Source: a virus (lineage: Duplodnaviria; Caudoviricetes). From it: a stretch of DNA of 38,734 nucleotides. How positions within the stretch are numbered: position 1 is the first letter of the stretch; the number at the start of each line of letters is the position of its first letter. The stretch lies in IMG/VR virus record IMGVR_UViG_3300014201_000016, positions 1 to 38,734 of that record; one strand, written 5' to 3'. The position numbers and the translations under genes are program-made. Under the pieces are notes generated by a model. The model had not been told where the DNA came from and made no database searches. It saw nothing but the letters and a program-made list of their open reading frames with translations. Positions 17,217-27,911 of the stretch are shown here, piece by piece.

Positions 17217-18398
17217 TCACATCGGAGGTTCGTTGTAAGCCGTTGCAAGTAGGTTATCCCCAACCACCGAGAACGTAATCGGCATCCCTTGGACTATGAC
17301 AGTGTTCGGTGCTAAGGACTGTGCAATCACAGTTCCTGCAATAGGACTCTTGGCCTTTACCTCGACCGGTGTCTGAGGGGCTAGACCTAGGAGTGCCGCT
17401 AGAGCCGTTGCAGTGTAATAGTCCATCCCGACGAAGTTCGGCATGCTGCCGGAAACAAACCACGTGAGATTGGCATTCCCTGGCGTCTCTACAAAAACCC
17501 CTCCGGAGGCCACCATGATATAAGCAGAAGCCCCGGAGAGAATTACGTTCTGTCCAAAGAGCGCGAACTGTCCGTAATTCGGATAGATACTCAGTTGTGA
17601 GATCGCTTGAGCACCGACGAAGTCGAAAGCTCCTGGATTCGCGAGTAACGTGAATCCAATCCCAGTATTCCAAGTGAGTGTCGCCGCTATGCCTGTGAGA
17701 GCAAACGATCCATAAGCACAGCTCAGACTGTAGTTGCTACTCGCCGTCGCATAGTACGTACATAGAGCTGCAGCCCATTTACCGCTGAAGGTCGTCGTGC
17801 CCCAACTGACCGTAACGGCTGAGGTCCCAGAGGACTGCACTTGATAGTCGGCGTCTCCACAGCTATCACTGGTATTGGATGGGTTGTAGAAGGACGTGAA
17901 CGTCCCAGGGCCCCCGGTAGGAGGGAAGGTCCCACCGTTTCCTAAAGACCCACCAGCCAGAACCGGGATTAGCACCTCATTCGCATTCGCCAGTGCGCTT
18001 GTGGGCCCAACGCTCGGCGTGGTGCTATTGGCCCCTCCGGTTGCCGTTTGATCCAGTGTGAGGGGAGGGAACTCTATGAGTTCCGTCGTACCATAAAGAT
18101 CAGCTTTGGTACCGCTGGGAATCGTAACGGTACAACTGTGACTCCCAGCCGTAGCGTTCGCGAGTCTCGCGAGAATGACGACCGCGAGGCCGCCTTCCTC
18201 GAAATAACCATCCTGGGTGTAAGTCGTCCCATCGCTGACTGTGAATCCACCACCGGTGGGCGCTGAGCCATCGGTGAATATCACGCTTGTGAGCGAGATC
18301 AGCGTATTGCCGGCGGTCACACCCGTCAGAGATGCAGTTGCCGTATAAGTGTGAGCAAAAGTCGCAAGGGATGAGTTCTGGACCGGATTCAGACTCAT
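17217..18398 (-). CDS. virion protein with C-terminal PASTA-like domain
   Basis: Ser/Thr-rich beta protein ending MPNFVGMDYYTA...LGL...GTVIAQSLAPNTVIVQGMPITFSV. Confidence 0.7.
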   Translation of the reverse strand: MSLNPVQNSSLATFAHTYTATASLTGVTAGNTLISLTSVIFTDGSAPTGGGFTVSDGTTYTQDGYFEEGGLAVVILARLANATAGSHSCTVTIPSGTKADLYGTTELIEFPPLTLDQTATGGANSTTPSVGPTSALANANEVLIPVLAGGSLGNGGTFPPTGGPGTFTSFYNPSNTSDSCGDADYQVQSSGTSAVTVSWGTTTFSGKWAAALCTYYATASSNYSLSCAYGSFALTGIAATLTWNTGIGFTLLANPGAFDFVGAQAISQLSIYPNYGQFALFGQNVILSGASAYIMVASGGVFVETPGNANLTWFVSGSMPNFVGMDYYTATALAALLGLAPQTPVEVKAKSPIAGTVIAQSLAPNTVIVQGMPITFSVVGDNLLATAYNEPPM

Positions 18399-21194: not shown

Positions 21195-22764
21195 TTAACC
21201 GTAGATGCGCAGTCCCAGTGATCGGTACAACGACGCTGGTCCATAGAGCACATCTGCCCTAGTCGGCTCAGAATCGTTATTGACCGTGTACTGGGTGACC
21301 ATGCGGATACTCATGCCGACGTCCTCATCGTCATAAGCACGAGCAGCCATCTCTACTCCTCGCGGGAGAGGAAGATCGGCAAAGGCCAACGCAAAGGCGT
21401 ACTTGTGGAATACTAGCCCTTGAGGGGTAACGGTTCCTTGAGTAGCCGAATTGTTGAACACAATGGCCGAACCGCTCACCGGAGCAGTGGTAACGTTCTG
21501 GAACTGACCGCCTGAGATAATCGCTTCCCCGATATTGAGCGTGCAATAGCCGTTAGAGTCTGAGGTATATACCCCAGTAGCGTTATTGAACGTTCCGTTG
21601 GGAAGGGTCGTCGGTGAGAAGTAGATTCCAGAGGTCGCAGCACCGTTCGGAGGAGTCCCGAAACCACCCGGGGGAAGGACTACGAACTGCTTCAAGGTCC
21701 GACCATATTGTCTGCGGTTCTGAGGATTGACCGGATAGACGGTGGCTATGGTAAAGATATCTCCAACGGTACAAACCGGTGAAGTAGCAGTGAAGCCCTG
21801 GACCGTCAAAGTTCCAGAAGCTGCCCAGCCCGTCGACAGAAGGGCACTGTTCGAATAGCCCGAAGTGGAAAGAGTCGCAAAACTCGCTGCCGTACCCGTA
21901 TTAGTACCAGTGGTAAAGGACAGAATATTCTGATCCTCCCACCAGTCCAAACCAGCATATTCCTTTGTTACGAGACCCTTCTCGTTGAATTCACTGATTC
22001 TCGCTTGAGGGTTAAACAATCCCTTCTGAGCATCCGTCACCGCAGACATGGTGATGGGATCAAGAACGCAGTTCTTCTCACCCTCAGTCGGACATGACTC
22101 TAACGCCAGGATCGCTCGAGCATCCGAGAATATCTTGTAGGAGGCCGGTTGAGTTCCAGCGGTTCCAAGAGCATTCGCGGTGTTATAGGTGTAATACTGG
22201 GCAGAATCGGCATCGATTCTATTCGCGACCGTAGCAATCTGCGGCTTCAGAATCCTCTTCTTGAACATATCCATGCTCAAGGCCAAATCCTGGGTCGTGA
22301 ACTGCACGTCCACGTGGTACTGATAATTCAGTACTACGGGAACATAGGTCTCGAAAGTGTCCTCGACATTCAGAGGAGGACCGTAAGTGCCGATGTAACG
22401 TGGGGGGCGTCGGATATTAACAGTGTTGCCGACCTTAGCGCCGGTCTGGGCAAACTCATTGCTATCAAGTTGTTACTGCCATCTCTGGCGGAGAGACCGC
22501 TTCGGGTCCCTCTCTGCACCTTCATCTATCCGTGCAGGTCAGACTATCGCTTGCCTTTTAAGGCCCCTCTCACTTAGTCGTTCAGGCTGCCTTGCGGCTT
22601 GCCCCTTGTTGCCCCATCGGGTTTCCAAGTCAATCAGAGAGGGTTTAACGTCAGCAGCTATGGGTTTACTGACGCTCCACACGATTCGCGATCACTAATT
22701 CGTTCTCTAGTACTACTAGAGCCTCATTAGTGATGTAACTCATCGTGAGAAGTTGTTGAGTCAT
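21195..22764 (-). CDS. major capsid protein, P22 gp5-like; spliced: exon 1 22764-22668, exon 2 22465-21195 (455 aa)
   Basis: Joined exons read MTQQLLTMSYITNEALVVLENELVIANRVERQ-Y-SNEFAQTGAKVGNTVNIRRPPRY..., ending ...FHKYAFALAFADLPLP...RADVLYG. Confidence 0.92.
22466..22667 (-). ncRNA. group I self-splicing intron, 202 nt, no ORF
   Basis: 5' exon ends in U and intron ends in G; P1 CGUCAGU/GCUGACG with U-G at the splice site; P3 CCCUCUC/GAGAGGG; P7 GACUA/UAGUC; P6a GCC-GCAA-GGC; P8 GCCU-UAAA-AGGC; three P9 hairpins; removal restores the frame. Confidence 0.93.
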
Positions 22765-22773
22765 ATCAATACC

Positions 22774-22998
22774 TTACGAGTGTATGTTGATGTTACTTGA
22801 ATGGCGCTTGCCGGACAAGATCATGCAGATCATTGAATCCGATACGCCTAACCAATCACCGATCACTCGCTGAGTACAGCCTGCAGCGCGCAGGTCACGG
22901 ATACGCTCGACGTCAGTCGCATTGAGGATTTGCGCCCTAGTACCTTGATGACACGCATGGCGCCTTTTGCGTATCATATCTTCTGAATTGTCGCTATT
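22774..22998 (-). pseudogene. C-terminal remnant of an HNH homing endonuclease (HTH tail)
   Basis: ...DNSEDMIRKRRHA...LNATDVERIRDLRAAGCTQRVIGDWLGVSDSMICMILSGK: end of an HNH domain plus DNA-binding tail, catalytic part missing. Confidence 0.65.
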
Positions 22999-23952
22999 TT
23001 AATGCTTTTTGCGCTTCGCTCGCTCGTAGTCTCTCAATTCCCTAAAGGACATCTTGGAAGGGTCAGTATTGACCGTTCCGGTTCCAGTAGAGGAAAGGGG
23101 AGTGATCGGAGGCGGTGCTCCACCACGCTCGACTACCTTCGGAGGTTCCGGCTCTTTGACCGGGGGTTTCTCAAAGGTGAGCTCGAGCTTGCCGATTTCA
23201 GCTATCGCTTTGATCGGCGGTAGTTTCGAGATGCGATCCACTGTCTCAGGATGAGTCGCTAGGTGATAGCTCACATCCGGACCATATTCACTCTCGGTGA
23301 TGTATTGAAGCACCGCATTAGGTAACCAAGCTTCACTCTTGCCGATGGCTTCGTGAAAGTCTGGATACTTCTTAACCGCAGCATCGACCCTGGACTTGAA
23401 TTGGGATTCAATCCGGGTCTTCTCTTGCTGCTCCCTTTCCTGTGCTTGACGCACCCGCTCATCTGCTACAGCCTTCTTCGCTGCAAAGTCCGCTGACGCT
23501 TCGGTAAAGTCAGTCCATCTGACTTGTCCCTTATCGTCCGTGAAATCCTTAATATCAGGTTTCTTTAACTCGGGTTCTTTCGGAGGAACCTTTTTAGCTT
23601 CTGTCAGCTCCTTTTCCAGAGCTGAAGCTCGCTCCTCAGCCAATCTTGCACGATCGTACTGATTCTTGGCGAAAGCTTCAGCATCAGCCTGAGCCTCTTG
23701 GGCTTCTTTCATCTGGCGATGCTTTTTGTTGATCTTCTTGCGGACATGTTCGGTCAGATCAATATCGTCAGGCTCTAAACCTTCGTCCTCAGCAGGGATC
23801 GGAGGTGGTAGTGGAGCAGGAGTCTCAGCCTTTTCCTGTGGAGGAGGTGCAGCTTTTTCTGCAGGCTTGATCTCTGGCTTATCAGGTAGTGTTTCATGCT
23901 TGCCACTCTCGATAAACTCCTGAAGTCCTGCTCCCGTAATTACCTTGGCCAT
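22999..23952 (-). CDS. scaffolding protein
   Basis: Charged coiled-coil protein, KYPDF...ESEYGPDVSYHLA.HP...EIGKLE, basic C-terminus; start ATG 23952 overlaps the upstream TAA. Confidence 0.85.
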   Translation of the reverse strand: MAKVITGAGLQEFIESGKHETLPDKPEIKPAEKAAPPPQEKAETPAPLPPPIPAEDEGLEPDDIDLTEHVRKKINKKHRQMKEAQEAQADAEAFAKNQYDRARLAEERASALEKELTEAKKVPPKEPELKKPDIKDFTDDKGQVRWTDFTEASADFAAKKAVADERVRQAQEREQQEKTRIESQFKSRVDAAVKKYPDFHEAIGKSEAWLPNAVLQYITESEYGPDVSYHLATHPETVDRISKLPPIKAIAEIGKLELTFEKPPVKEPEPPKVVERGGAPPPITPLSSTGTGTVNTDPSKMSFRELRDYERAKRKKH

Positions 23953-24524
23953 TATTTCCTCACCCAAGTAGCCGAGATATCGAATACTGCGTCCTTGTAA
24001 AACTGAATCGCAAAAGTCTGTCGCTCCTGGTTCTTCGATTGGAACTCAGGATGCAACGTATAACCCCAAGTGCATTCGAAGTTGCAGCTATATCCTTCAG
24101 GATTCCATTGGATATCATTGTCTGGAGCGTTCTCATCCCGCCATTTCTTGGAGAGATAGTAGAACCACATCTCAGACACCGGAGGCCATTGGTGGGTGAA
24201 ATCCCCATAAGCTCGGTTGGAAGCCCAATATGGCGTGATGACATAGGCCTTAGCCTCCTTCTGCATCACTCGGTGCATCTCATTGACGACTTTCACCCTC
24301 TGAGGTCCGGTGAAGTGCTCCATCGCATGAGACATGTGGACTTCTGCCACCGATTCATCTTCCCACGGCCATCTTTCAGTGAGATCACAGATTACGTCTA
24401 CTCCGGGGAAAGAGCGTCTATCGACTCCCGTGTAGCCTTCCTTTTTGTTCTTCCCGCAGCCCAAATCCAATCTCGTGATAGACTGCGGTTCAACCAATTT
24501 CAATGCTGAGCGACGTTTAGCCAT
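23952..24524 (-). CDS. class I SAM-dependent methyltransferase
   Basis: RLDLGCG motif I, D.VICDL...WPW.D.SV..V...H..EH, EMHRVM, DFTH. Confidence 0.88.
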   Translation of the reverse strand: MAKRRSALKLVEPQSITRLDLGCGKNKKEGYTGVDRRSFPGVDVICDLTERWPWEDESVAEVHMSHAMEHFTGPQRVKVVNEMHRVMQKEAKAYVITPYWASNRAYGDFTHQWPPVSEMWFYYLSKKWRDENAPDNDIQWNPEGYSCNFECTWGYTLHPEFQSKNQERQTFAIQFYKDAVFDISATWVRK

Positions 24525-24924
24525 GCCAATACTCCGAGTATGTAAAACCTGCGGACAGTCTTATTCTGCTCCGCCCTCTCAAAAACTCTTTTTCTGCTCT
24601 AATGCCTGCTACCACGTTGCCAAGAAAGGGGCAGGTAACCCCAAGTGGCGGGGCGGCAATTTCATCTGCGATGGTTACCGCTATATCTATGCCCCCGATC
24701 ATCCCAACGCGATCAAAGCTGGTTATATCGTGGAGCACAGACTAAATATGGAAAGGAAACTCAAGCGCCTTCTAACCACCAAAGAAGTCGTTCATCACAT
24801 CGATGGCAACAGACTCAATAATTCCATCGACAATCTCGTTCTCTGCCAATCCACTGGTCATCATTTCATTACCGAGCATCTATCAGAAAGAGACAACAAA
24901 GGCCGATTCTATCGTACTAAATAA
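24523..24924 (+). CDS. free-standing HNH endonuclease with N-terminal zinc finger
   Basis: CKTC...FCSNAC, NPKWRGG, EHRL.ME..L.R.L...EVVHHIDGNRLNNSIDNL. Confidence 0.88.
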   Translation: MPILRVCKTCGQSYSAPPSQKLFFCSNACYHVAKKGAGNPKWRGGNFICDGYRYIYAPDHPNAIKAGYIVEHRLNMERKLKRLLTTKEVVHHIDGNRLNNSIDNLVLCQSTGHHFITEHLSERDNKGRFYRTK

Positions 24925-24934
24925 TGTCGTTTCC

Positions 24935-25675
24935 CTACCACATAGTATCTTCGGGTCCGAAGGCACCTTCGAGGTCATGATGGCCCACTTTCACGCTGCA
25001 ATCGATCGCACATCGATAGCCGTATTTTCTAGCCTCGGACCAGAATGCTAAATCTTGTGTCCCCACACCTTTGTTATCGATTCCTGTATGAGTCTTGAAC
25101 CAAGGCTTGGCTAATCTCTTGTCGGTGAACATCTTCAGCCGCCAGAGATTGAAACCCATTCCAGTTCCATAGCACTCCACCAATCCACCTTTGGGATCGG
25201 GAGGCTGAGGTCTGTAGTTCAGGACCGGATCAGAGATATCTCCCCAAATCTGCGCGCATCCGCCTTCGCCTTTAGTGAAGTAGAGCCCTCCGATACAAGC
25301 ATATTCGGGATGCAATTCCATTTCATCGACTAATTTCACGACTCCATGACTCGGAGGAGCGTTGTCGTGTTCGACCGTCAAGATATATTCCCATTTCTTC
25401 AGCTCATCATTAGCCAAGATGTTCTCTATGGCTGTGGAATAAGCGTCTCCGACTTCCATACCCTGGGCGAGAATCTTCACTACTCCGTTATTCGGAGGGA
25501 AAGCTAGATTCCACCAGGAAAGCATGCATTTCGCTGATACTTTCTCAGCGGCAGGCAAGATTACGATAATCCTCTGTTTCTTCCACGAGGAGCCTTTGAG
25601 AAGCCTGGCTGTGGTCTTCTCAGGCTCTGCATTGTGCTTACCGCCGAAATCCGCCATGACGAACTGTGGTTTCAT
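24935..25675 (-). CDS. GT-A fold (GT2-like) glycosyltransferase
   Basis: YILTVEHD (DxD-like), IGGLYF, GTGMGF.L, PWF, TQDLAF...AR..GY....D..VKVGH. Confidence 0.8.
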   Translation of the reverse strand: MKPQFVMADFGGKHNAEPEKTTARLLKGSSWKKQRIIVILPAAEKVSAKCMLSWWNLAFPPNNGVVKILAQGMEVGDAYSTAIENILANDELKKWEYILTVEHDNAPPSHGVVKLVDEMELHPEYACIGGLYFTKGEGGCAQIWGDISDPVLNYRPQPPDPKGGLVECYGTGMGFNLWRLKMFTDKRLAKPWFKTHTGIDNKGVGTQDLAFWSEARKYGYRCAIDCSVKVGHHDLEGAFGPEDTMW

Positions 25676-25676
25676 C

Positions 25677-26351
25677 TTAAGTCCATAACCAAGTTGTTGC
25701 CCCAGCTACACTCGGTGCATCAAAGATAGCGGCAAACGCCATTAACTTACAGACGCTATTACCAGTAACACTAGACCCCACATTTTGGGTTCCAGTGGAA
25801 CTGAGAATTTCATGCGATGACAATCCTGGAGTCGTACCATCGACCAATCCAGTCCAACCGCTAATATCTGCAGTGCCAGTGGTCGCAGACAATGTTTCTC
25901 CACTAACGCTATTACAGTCATAAACCAATGCACTGATAATTGATGGTTGATTACTATTACTAGGAGAAACAGAGATAGATGTAGTACCAGTGGCTGCTTG
26001 AGCTGATGCATGCCCATCAAGTGGATTAATCGCCGCTCCACCAATCTCTCTAACCCATATTCCGACCTGACTGATCGAAGAAGAAAAAGTTACAGTAATT
26101 GTTGTCGATCCACTCGCGCAATTAGGAGCATAACCATGTGCTGCACTATCACCTTGATCACTATTATATTGAGTATCCAACGTCGTCCAGGTATTTACCC
26201 CATCGGAAAAGGTAAATGTGATATTCCCTAAACCAGTAGCAAAAGCATGCAAAGCACTGCCATTAGCTACATTGTTGGGAAGAGTAACTTGGATGCTTCC
26301 ATGATTACCCTCGTTATTAGAAGTCTGGGCCTCTTGCAAGACACTGAGCAT
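25677..26351 (-). CDS. Ser/Thr-rich virion protein
   Basis: Beta-rich; resembles the N-terminal half of 17217-18398. Confidence 0.65.
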   Translation of the reverse strand: MLSVLQEAQTSNNEGNHGSIQVTLPNNVANGSALHAFATGLGNITFTFSDGVNTWTTLDTQYNSDQGDSAAHGYAPNCASGSTTITVTFSSSISQVGIWVREIGGAAINPLDGHASAQAATGTTSISVSPSNSNQPSIISALVYDCNSVSGETLSATTGTADISGWTGLVDGTTPGLSSHEILSSTGTQNVGSSVTGNSVCKLMAFAAIFDAPSVAGATTWLWT

Positions 26352-27911
26352 CTAAGCCGTCACATTCACAAACACAACCGGAGCATAGTAATCCACTGCA
26401 TTTCCGCCCGATCCCGCACCAGATATCTGCGTTAAACCTATAGAACCAGGTAGAGCAGCTGAGGTCACCGAGAAGAATCCCTGTCCGGGAACAAACTGCA
26501 TACTGTTGACTTGCGTCTGTCCGATGAGACCTTGCAATTGGGGACCAGGCCCTAACGGTACAACAACATTGCTCAAACTCGCAGCATTGGTGTTCGTAAA
26601 GGTCGTGTTCGTCATCACACCGACGAATAGATCATATCCACCGGTATAGTTCACATTAATCGGTGCTGAAAAGCGTCTCATCCCGGAAATCGAAGCCGCT
26701 GAGTTATTACTCGAGTTGGTCCACTGATACGACTGAGAGCCACTGCTTGCAAGACTCAAGGTCGAACCATTGAGAGAATACAGCCCGACATAAAGGCTCA
26801 AAGCCTCAGCATCTGAAGACAATGCAATGGTGGACAAGGAGACTGAAGCGAAGATATCCGCTCTCGTAGCAGTGAACGGAAAAGCACCGGGTGCAGGATA
26901 AACCTGCACGCTTCCAAGACCATTCTGCGTCACCGTCGTATTGAGCGACGGAATCGGCTGAAAGAACGACAGTTGAACTAATTGAGCACCAATGGAGATC
27001 GTGCTCGCATTGACTGCGACTGAGACTAACCCTGTCCCCGAAAGCGATGAGGTCACAGGAACCGACAGTTGCACGCTGCCGTTACTGAATCCGACGGTCA
27101 TCGCTCCCAGACCATCGAAACTCACGGTTCGTGCATCAAGAGTCGTAGAGCTATTTTGAGTAGTGTTGCCTACTCCGTAGAGTCCTACGGTTTGATTGGT
27201 CTGGGTCGGAACTGTATAGGAAGCGGTAATACTCGCCGCGGAAGCTCCAGTGGACACTCCAAAGGTCAAGCCATTGGAGTTCTGAAAGGTCATTCCCGTG
27301 ACGGTATTACTATTCCCTGCTCCCCCTGAAACAGCTAGCGCTGAGATCAATCCAGCTGTTACAGGAACGGTATAGGAGCCCGTAACGGTGACGACAGAGG
27401 CTCCAGTTGAAACCCCAAAAGTAAGTCCGTTGGAGTTCGAGAACGTGATACCAGAGACTTTGCTCTGACTGTTCCCAGCTCCTCCCGAGACATTCAGCCC
27501 AGAAATCAATCCTGCGGTGACAGGAACCGTATAAGAAGCTGAGATTCCATTAGCCCCGGAGGAGCCAAAGCTCACTCCATTGGCATTCTGGAAAGTCAGA
27601 GTTCCCGAGGAATAACTGCTATTACTGACCGAAACCGCAACCCCACCAACTCCTGCGGCCGATGCTGTTATCGTCTGACCGTTAATCCCAAAAGTGACGC
27701 CGTTAGCATTGGAGAACTGAGCGGTCCCCGAGGTGATGGAATTGACTCCATCAAAGAGCGCAACTCCCCCTCCAGGGCCTCCACCGAGAGCTATAACAGG
27801 CCCTGTGGGCCCTATGAGGCCTGTGCCAGCGGTGTTATTCCAAGCCGCATAAGGCCCTCCTGCGACATTCCCCGTGGTCTGGGTCGCAGGTCCTGGATTG
27901 ACGGCAGTCAC
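26352..27911 (-). CDS. repeat-containing fibre-like protein
   Basis: Four F(S/Q)N(A/S)NG(V/L)(T/S)FG units and repeated SYTVP; C-terminal domain paralogous to 28341-29066. Confidence 0.75.
   Translation of the reverse strand: MTAVNPGPATQTTGNVAGGPYAAWNNTAGTGLIGPTGPVIALGGGPGGGVALFDGVNSITSGTAQFSNANGVTFGINGQTITASAAGVGGVAVSVSNSSYSSGTLTFQNANGVSFGSSGANGISASYTVPVTAGLISGLNVSGGAGNSQSKVSGITFSNSNGLTFGVSTGASVVTVTGSYTVPVTAGLISALAVSGGAGNSNTVTGMTFQNSNGLTFGVSTGASAASITASYTVPTQTNQTVGLYGVGNTTQNSSTTLDARTVSFDGLGAMTVGFSNGSVQLSVPVTSSLSGTGLVSVAVNASTISIGAQLVQLSFFQPIPSLNTTVTQNGLGSVQVYPAPGAFPFTATRADIFASVSLSTIALSSDAEALSLYVGLYSLNGSTLSLASSGSQSYQWTNSSNNSAASISGMRRFSAPINVNYTGGYDLFVGVMTNTTFTNTNAASLSNVVVPLGPGPQLQGLIGQTQVNSMQFVPGQGFFSVTSAALPGSIGLTQISGAGSGGNAVDYYAPVVFVNVTA

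What the first reader, a model, noticed from the sequence alone, without database searches (positions are those of the whole stretch)
22466..22667. Minimal 202-nt group I intron in the major capsid gene
Seen: the capsid frame stops at TAA after 32 codons. Excising 22667-22466 joins T+AT into Tyr and gives a 455-aa coat protein. P1 with the U-G splice-site pair, P3, P6a, P7, P8, P9 hairpins and terminal G are all visible; there is no P2 and no ORF. Knowledge: classic phage group I introns are mostly in DNA-metabolism genes (T4 td, nrdB, nrdD; SPO1 polymerase), and this size is close to the very small Azoarcus tRNA-Ile intron. Inference: output of the most abundant virion protein depends on splicing, a possible checkpoint. 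Automated annotation truncates this gene.
Basis: partly seen in the sequence, partly recalled or inferred. Interest (0 to 1): 0.85.

Follow-up and report, generated by a model that had tools for sequence, protein, structure and literature searches.

The report
Tiny spliced intron in phage coat
A 202-base group I intron interrupts the coat-protein gene of an uncultured wetland phage, one environmental RNA sample shows it removed exactly as predicted, and it likely cuts itself out as a harmless passenger; introns in phage coat genes are already known, so this is a well-supported but fairly ordinary case.

Summary
Confirmed. Removing 22667-22466 restores a 455-aa P22-type coat protein; 71 of 80 viral homologue loci are continuous across this codon. 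The insert has a full group I core without P2, supported by covariation in 19 relatives. One metatranscriptome holds a contig that skips exactly these 202 nt; four DNA runs from other samples do not. This is one low-depth contig with 30 nt on its short side.

It is neither unique nor regulatory on present evidence. About 220 IMG/VR stretches share its core, mostly in capsid genes where the host could be named (32 of 41). Many are 202-225 nt long. Spliced capsid introns are published (LittleE; crAss-like phages predicted), and this scan has reported similar ones in at least 48 other genomes.

New here: three unrelated intron cores occupy this same site in related phages. The small ORF 10 nt upstream of the coat gene is a decapitated free-standing HNH endonuclease, intact in relatives. 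Best reading: a selfish, ORF-less, likely self-splicing intron in a decaying homing hotspot. A checkpoint role is unsupported.

The parts
22668..22764 (-). Coat gene exon 1 (32 codons plus 1 nt; ends in the splice-site U)
22466..22667 (-). 202-nt ORF-less group I intron; starts AA (forming in-frame UAA with the exon U), ends in omega-G
22647..22676 (-). P1: exon 22676-22668 paired with the internal guide 22655-22647, 9 bp including the U-G pair; no P2 follows
   Evidence: guide G invariant in 19 of 19 aligned introns
22565..22643 (-). P3 (22643-22636 with 22573-22565) enclosing P4, a 3-bp P5, P6 and P6a
   Evidence: 7 of 8 P3 pairs show changes on both sides; P4 was fixed by my search pattern and is untested
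22541..22581 (-). P7 with the guanosine-binding G-C pair and bulged C (22581-22575 with 22546-22541); P8 at 22564-22553
   Evidence: 2 of 6 P7 pairs and 3 of 3 P8 pairs show changes on both sides
22466..22537 (-). 3' domain: P9 with 12-nt loop (22537-22514), P9.1 (22512-22491), P9.2 with GNRA loop (22489-22478), conserved GTAACA (22476-22471), omega-G 22466
21195..22465 (-). Coat gene exon 2 (P22_CoatProtein PF11651, E 9.5e-25; PHROG 283 major head protein, E 5.9e-53)
22774..22977 (-). 67-aa ORF: C-terminal HTH remnant of a free-standing HNH endonuclease whose nuclease domain is deleted; lies between scaffold and coat genes
22999..23967 (-). Head scaffolding protein gene (PHROG 8865), upstream context

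Best explanation
The 202-base insert is a group I intron in the coat gene of a P22-like phage; one environmental RNA sample shows it precisely removed, it likely excises itself by the standard guanosine-initiated two-step reaction, and it most likely persists as a near-neutral selfish passenger, not as a regulator. Shown: boundaries, restored reading frame, core helices, and a spliced RNA form. Inferred: the 9-bp P1 sets the 5' site at the U-G pair; the P7 pocket binds first a free guanosine and then the terminal G; ribosomes on unspliced RNA stop at the UAA that spans the splice site and so stay out of the ribozyme. The intron has no nuclease gene, so it probably arrived by homing driven in trans. 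The candidates are the neighbouring free-standing HNH endonuclease, now reduced to its DNA-binding tail, or a lost intron-encoded ORF. The 5' end of this coat gene is a hotspot repeatedly invaded by unrelated introns and nucleases.
For: Frame and homologues: (71 of 80 viral loci continuous across codon 33; 4 carry an insert there; 5 could not be counted). Structure: (19 introns, 40 pairs, 96.6% of cells paired, 23 pairs with changes on both sides, 0 of 500 shuffles as high, slid controls 40-48% paired). RNA: (run X2, one 201-nt contig, depth 3.86, no other letters, skips 202 nt at 22464/22667 with 1 nt of ambiguity; no joint in DNA runs X1, X3, X4, X7). The nearest of 146 compared loci differs at 36 of 201 nt over that span, so the contig comes from this phage population. 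Selfish history: the same site holds three unrelated cores, namely this type, L014/L015 (about 262 nt), and L005/L055/L278 with an HNH-like ORF in P6a plus ORF-less L209. The upstream remnant is 54-59% identical to intact HNH proteins at the same position in L008 and L037; 70 of 74 relatives have no large insert there. In-frame stops at the 5' junction and a need for upstream translation are described for bacterial group I introns (PMC3073962, passages).
Against: The spliced form is one low-depth contig in 1 of 3 RNA runs laid, with 30 nt on its short side, just under the tool's 31-nt rule for bridging. The DNA runs are from other samples than X2, and cover of the junction by X3, X4 and X7 was not visible (table cut), so an intron-less sibling in that sample is not excluded. 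X2 also holds an exon1-intron contig (depth 2.9), which may be precursor RNA or DNA. Protein-free self-splicing was not tested. Rfam's group I model scores the intron below threshold. P10 is 1 bp in the normal register. The intact free-standing HNH sits beside intron-less coat genes in 3 lineages and beside introns at other sites in 1, so it does not depend on this intron. A stop at the junction is not a family rule: 3 of 14 well-supported relatives have it at the junction, 9 only 55-90 nt inside.
Confidence: 0.85

Rival explanations
1. [quoted passage not shown]
For: Coat synthesis does require splicing. The family favours capsid genes: 32 of 41 named hosts among 87 flanking frames, in five PHROG families. 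T4 intron splicing is reported to follow host growth state (title in the reference list of PMC3073962; paper not read). Unspliced exon1-intron sequence is present in the RNA run.
Against: 71 of 80 homologue loci lack any insert at this site. Unrelated introns, some with a homing nuclease, occupy the same site. The RNA has no extra domain that could act as a sensor. LittleE's capsid intron is described as efficiently spliced (PMC3706429). The capsid bias may partly reflect a search pattern drawn from a capsid intron.
Confidence: 0.08
2. The intron is real but needs a host or phage protein (RNA chaperone or trans-acting maturase) because it lacks P2 and a canonical L9 tetraloop.
For: No P2, 3-bp P5, short P8, 12-nt L9, weak P10. 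The L2-P8 and L9-P5 tetraloop contacts of Azoarcus (recalled) cannot form in the usual way.
Against: The same minimal build recurs in many unrelated phages (15 P2-less introns of 202-225 nt). 10 of 19 aligned relatives have a GNRA L9 in the same frame. P9.1 and P9.2 could supply other contacts.
Confidence: 0.2
3. The joined RNA contig comes from an intron-less sibling phage, and the intron-bearing allele is inactive or uses an internal start.
For: One contig, low depth, no paired DNA from the same sample; RNA libraries can carry DNA (X2 covers 28 of 30 bins of a 19.5-kb stretch). An internal GTG gives a 372-aa ORF.
Against: No joined form in four DNA runs; X1 spans the intron in one 13-kb contig. 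Core pairs are intact and match the family consensus. The first 83 residues that an internal start would drop are among the best conserved (88-100% over residues 1-32 in split homologues).
Confidence: 0.07

Closest known systems
Mycobacteriophage LittleE capsid intron and BAKA/Optimus tail intron (Pope et al. 2013, PMC3706429; passages read)
   Same: Intron in a major capsid gene, exon U and terminal G, removed at RNA level (RT-PCR, N-terminal sequencing); BAKA's 265-bp intron is ORF-less.
   Different: LittleE's intron is 819 bp with a nuclease ORF, in a siphovirus; no sequence match to this intron was seen in the phage collection. Here: 202 nt, P22-type coat, full core modelled.
Group I introns in MCP genes of crAss-like phages (Yutin et al. 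2021, PMC7886860; passages read) and the Tuc2009 capsid intron (known only from its citation in PMC3706429)
   Same: Capsid genes split by group I introns, often several, which confuses annotation.
   Different: The crAss introns were found through encoded protein domains; this one is ORF-less and belongs to a family that Rfam RF00028 misses.
Azoarcus BH72 tRNA-Ile intron, IC3, 205 nt (PMC3895272; passages read)
   Same: About the same size; complete catalytic core.
   Different: mRNA rather than tRNA host. Azoarcus keeps P2 (recalled), whereas this intron drops P2 and spends the length on P9.1 and P9.2. No sequence comparison was made.
Cyanophage S-PM2 psbA intron with free-standing F-CphI, collaborative homing (PMC6083498, PMC3984707; passages read)
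   Same: ORF-less intron next to a free-standing endonuclease gene.
   Different: Here the neighbour is an HNH-HTH protein that has lost its nuclease domain, its target is unknown, and intact copies also flank intron-less coat genes.
Jug phage group I introns (PMC12880540; passages read)
   Same: Short phage introns (reported mean about 206 nt) with splicing supported by metatranscriptome reads.
   Different: Examples given are terL, nrdD and polymerase genes of gut jumbo phages; the lengths there come from covariance-model hits.

Membership tests
Group I intron | U-G pair at the 5' splice site within P1 | tested here: met
   9-bp P1; guide G invariant in 19 of 19
Group I intron | Terminal omega-G at the 3' splice site | tested here: met
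   G22466; boundary fixed by homologues and RNA joint
Group I intron | P3-P7 pseudoknot with guanosine-binding G-C pair and bulge in P7 | tested here: met
   P3 7 of 8 and P7 2 of 6 pairs with changes on both sides, P7 100% paired
Group I intron | P4-P5-P6 domain | tested here: met
   P5, P6 and P6a covary; P4 pairs form but were fixed by the search pattern, so carry no covariation evidence
Group I intron | Precise removal from RNA | tested here: met
   one contig in RNA run X2 skips exactly 202 nt; absent from four DNA runs; single low-depth observation
Group I intron | Guanosine-dependent, protein-free self-splicing | not testable with these tools
   needs an in vitro assay
Rfam RF00028 Intron_gpI | Score at or above 50 bits | tested here: not met
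   15 bits, E 0.16. A relative, L298, scores 40.3 bits. PMC6125680 notes that this single model covers the subtypes poorly.
Subgroups IA/IB/IC (GISSD) | Best score against subtype covariance models; peripheral elements such as P2, P7.1/P7.2, P5abc | not testable with these tools
   subtype models not available. Seen directly: no P2, no P7.1/P7.2, no P5abc. Subtype left open.
Mobile (homing) group I intron | Encodes its own endonuclease | tested here: not met
   no ORF in the intron; other introns at the same site do carry one
Collaborative homing pair | Adjacent free-standing endonuclease gene | tested here: inconclusive
   only the C-terminal HTH remains; intact in relatives
Collaborative homing pair | Endonuclease cuts the intron-less allele at the insertion site and the intron confers immunity | not testable with these tools
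   target unknown; intact gene also lies beside intron-less coats in L008, L212-L214 and L215

The most novel reading that the evidence does not exclude
This intron stands for an undescribed, capsid-preferring subgroup of minimal group I ribozymes (about 195-225 nt, no P2, half of them with a non-GNRA L9) that fold by contacts different from Azoarcus and are the smallest natural complete self-splicers. Capsid sites such as codon 33 are re-colonised by swapping whole catalytic cores behind a site-specific P1 guide, helped by neighbouring free-standing HNH nucleases that then decay.
Probability: 0.25. Interest if true: 0.55.

Novelty: new member of a known kind. Interest (0 to 1): 0.33.

Why it matters
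Practical: gene callers record a coat protein missing its first 83 residues, and Rfam misses the whole family, so capsid genes of many soil, peat and freshwater phages are mis-annotated. The family offers many natural ribozymes at or below Azoarcus size, of possible use for structure work and RNA circularisation. Evolutionary: one codon carrying three unrelated intron cores, with and without nucleases, beside a free-standing nuclease in intact and decapitated states, is a compact natural series for studying the homing cycle in a structural gene. None of this overturns current views.

Tried and rejected
Rfam scan of the whole window: no group I hit. A model built from 19 relatives found no second intron of this kind in the window or its record. 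BLAST against 50,697 annotated phages gave 22 records, only 4 with real core matches; none of the three regions opened had an intron annotated. A scan of GTDB genomes, made to see whether the family sits in rRNA or tRNA (which would help assign a subtype), gave 13 stretches, none with an rRNA or tRNA match. My first automatic splice-site caller mis-called several ends, including this intron (206 nt), and was replaced. Of its 41 calls only 21 met the support filter; the 195-nt (L114) and 201-nt (L130) calls did not and are tentative. L210 was a chance pattern match and was dropped. RNA runs X5 and X6 showed no joint. X5 has a contig that ends at 22465 with 6 unlaid letters, too little to count. 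Depth differences between genes in X2 were not used. An in-frame stop at the junction as a family-wide rule was tested and rejected. A strict link between the free-standing HNH and introns was tested and not found. Literature: one four-term search returned nothing; searches showed no paper on introns in P22-type coat genes or on this family. That is six searches of open-access text only. The group I database of PMC11835236 (passages read, supplements and database not opened) may already list these introns.

Full report
OBSERVATION. The window is a 38.7-kb virus record, about 95% complete, with terminase, P22-like portal, scaffold, coat, head-closure, DNA-ejection and lysin genes on the minus strand. 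The coat frame starts at 22764 and stops at TAA after 32 codons. Removing 22667-22466 gives a 455-aa open frame. Exon 2 alone matches PF11651 from profile position 40 and PHROG 283 from position 39, so the profiles' N-termini are missing from it. Of 33 frame-keeping T/G excisions only the proposed one reproduces the homologous peptide. Among 80 viral loci fetched with exon 2 (the best 80 of 159), 71 run continuously across codon 33, all with Tyr there; 4 carry an insert at that codon; 5 were not countable because they were truncated, frameshifted or split elsewhere. The protein collection holds the 372-aa internal-start product, so the truncation claim is right.

STRUCTURE. Rfam misses the intron on the whole window and gives RF00028 15 bits on a short stretch. 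A pattern from its P4-P6 region finds about 220 stored stretches in IMG/VR (estimate; 121 fetched) and 13 in GTDB. I aligned the window intron with 18 compact P2-less relatives chosen by eye and counted pairs on a hand-drawn structure. 96.6% of 757 cells pair and 23 of 40 pairs change on both sides; none of 500 shuffles reached this, and slid controls pair at 40-48%. P3 (7 of 8 pairs), P5, P6, P6a, P7 (2 of 6), P8 and P9.1 all covary. P4 is invariant because the search pattern fixed it. The structure was drawn from these sequences, which favours it over the slid controls. P1 is 9 bp with the U-G pair and is followed by P3 after 3 nt, so P2 is absent; P7.1/P7.2 and P5abc are absent too. L9 is a 12-nt loop. 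P10 is weak. The subtype could not be assigned. A model from this alignment finds no second such intron in the window and 176 matches, some partial or duplicate, in 94 loci.

RNA EVIDENCE. Fourteen public runs hold part of the locus, five of them RNA. I laid 3 RNA and 4 DNA runs. Metatranscriptome X2 has a 201-nt contig, depth 3.86, with no other letters, that joins 22464 to 22667 with one letter of ambiguity: a skip of exactly 202 nt. X2 also has an exon1-intron contig (depth 2.9). None of DNA runs X1, X3, X4, X7 shows the joint, and X1 (possibly the source of this DNA) spans the intron in one contig. The closest of 146 compared loci differs at 36 of the 201 positions, so the contig is not from a known intron-less relative. 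Limits: one contig, 30 nt on the short side, no paired DNA, junction cover in X3, X4 and X7 not visible, and contigs cannot give splicing efficiency.

SIZE AND HOSTS. Of 41 compact introns called by script, 21 passed the filter (P1 of 6 bp or more, 25 open codons on both sides). They are 202-262 nt long, and 15 without P2 are 202-225 nt (the window intron is among them, and some calls for P2-bearing introns are unreliable). Two weaker calls are 195 and 201 nt. Azoarcus is 205 nt (PMC3895272). GISSD IB4 and IA3 alignments start at 203 and 205 nt (PMC6125680), and Jug phage introns average about 206 nt (PMC12880540). So this intron is at the lower edge of known sizes but has many peers. Of 104 distinct family matches, 87 had an upstream frame long enough to scan: 32 hit major head proteins of five PHROG families, 5 ribonucleotide reductases, 3 tape-measure proteins, 1 a homing endonuclease, 46 nothing.

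THE SITE AND ITS NEIGHBOUR. Codon 33 carries three unrelated cores in related phages: this type; L014/L015 (about 262 nt); and L005/L055 and L278 (about 680-690 nt, 179- and 187-aa ORFs in P6a, the former HNH/endonuclease VII-like by PHROG) with the ORF-less L209. Their P1 guides resemble each other, as pairing with the same exon demands; core swapping is possible but untested. The gap between scaffold and coat is 234 nt here, while 70 of 74 relatives have 73 nt or less. The 67-aa ORF in the gap is 54-59% identical to the C-terminal HTH of an HNH endonuclease found intact at the same position in L008, L037 and L212-L215; DNA alignment shows the nuclease part deleted right behind the scaffold stop. 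Intact copies flank intron-less coats in three lineages and a coat with introns at other sites in one, so collaborative homing as described for S-PM2 (PMC6083498, PMC3984707) is plausible but not shown.

MECHANISM. Shown: boundaries, core, one spliced RNA form. From established group I chemistry (recalled): guanosine bound in P7 attacks the U-G site, then the exon's 3' OH attacks after the terminal G. Inferred: the UAA spanning the splice site releases ribosomes before the core, as described for bacterial introns (PMC3073962); the intron spread by nucleases acting in trans and now persists because splicing makes it cheap. The checkpoint reading has no positive support, and the patchy distribution argues against it.

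COMPARISON AND VERDICT. A preference of phage group I introns for nucleotide-metabolism genes is still stated in recent work (PMC12350094), but capsid introns are in print: LittleE with RT-PCR and protein evidence, Tuc2009 by citation (PMC3706429), and crAss-like MCP genes (PMC7886860). For all papers named I saw search listings and matched passages, not whole texts or supplements; PMC11835236's database was not opened and may list this family. Earlier notes of this scan report similar introns in at least 48 other genomes; they pointed me to PMC3706429 and are not independent support. Verdict: a real group I intron, a new member of a known kind, with unusually good in-situ support and an instructive neighbourhood. 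Interest 0.33.

Noticed in passing
window 22774-22977 (-): Decapitated free-standing HNH endonuclease: the deletion runs from the scaffold stop codon to just after the HNH motif, leaving a 67-aa HTH ORF that might still bind DNA. Intact copies at the same position in L008, L037, L212-L215.
   Followed up: partly
window 22662-22656 and 22463-22457 (-): P10 is 1 bp in the normal register, but guide and 3' exon pair at 6 of 7 positions if the first two exon bases are skipped. The exon uses an AGC serine codon, found in 7 of 96 distinct intron-less junctions.
   Followed up: partly
alignment A1, P9: Two L9 types in one family: GNRA tetraloop in 10 of 19, and a longer loop with conserved ends in 9 of 19 including this intron; unexplained.
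   Followed up: no
L081, L083, L087, L091, L110, L136, L140, L147, L209, L037: P22-type coat genes with two to three or more introns at other sites (near codons 45-49, 86, 108, 206, 395, 423-435), some separated by micro-exons.
   Followed up: partly
L203 (GenBank MW202674.1), L202 (OR420741.1), L204 (OR395405.1): Unannotated members of this intron family in public phage records: a coat gene annotated as two CDS plus a spurious ORF, and a ribonucleotide reductase of cultured Roseobacter phage CRP-118 annotated as two CDS. The cultured phage would allow a direct splicing test.
   Followed up: partly
L133, L290, L291: The same intron family sits in tape-measure genes, including records titled Bacillus pumilus and Siminovitchia (likely prophages).
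   Followed up: no
L088, L093, L106, L162, L186, L190: Relatives with long AT-rich inserts in P6a that look like genes on the opposite strand; others (L089, L099, L107, L188, L195) have 100-250-nt inserts that look like decayed ORFs.
   Followed up: no
L012, L013, L014, L037, L060, L227, L259, L275, L284: A second, more distant HNH gene lies shortly downstream of the coat gene in several relatives.
   Followed up: no
window 23952-27911 (-) and 17217-18398 (-): Methyltransferase- and glycosyltransferase-like genes between portal and scaffold genes, and a PASTA-domain protein among the virion genes.
   Followed up: no
window 22568-22640, runs X1, X3, X4: Loose contig ends show other phages with related introns in the same wetland samples.
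   Followed up: no
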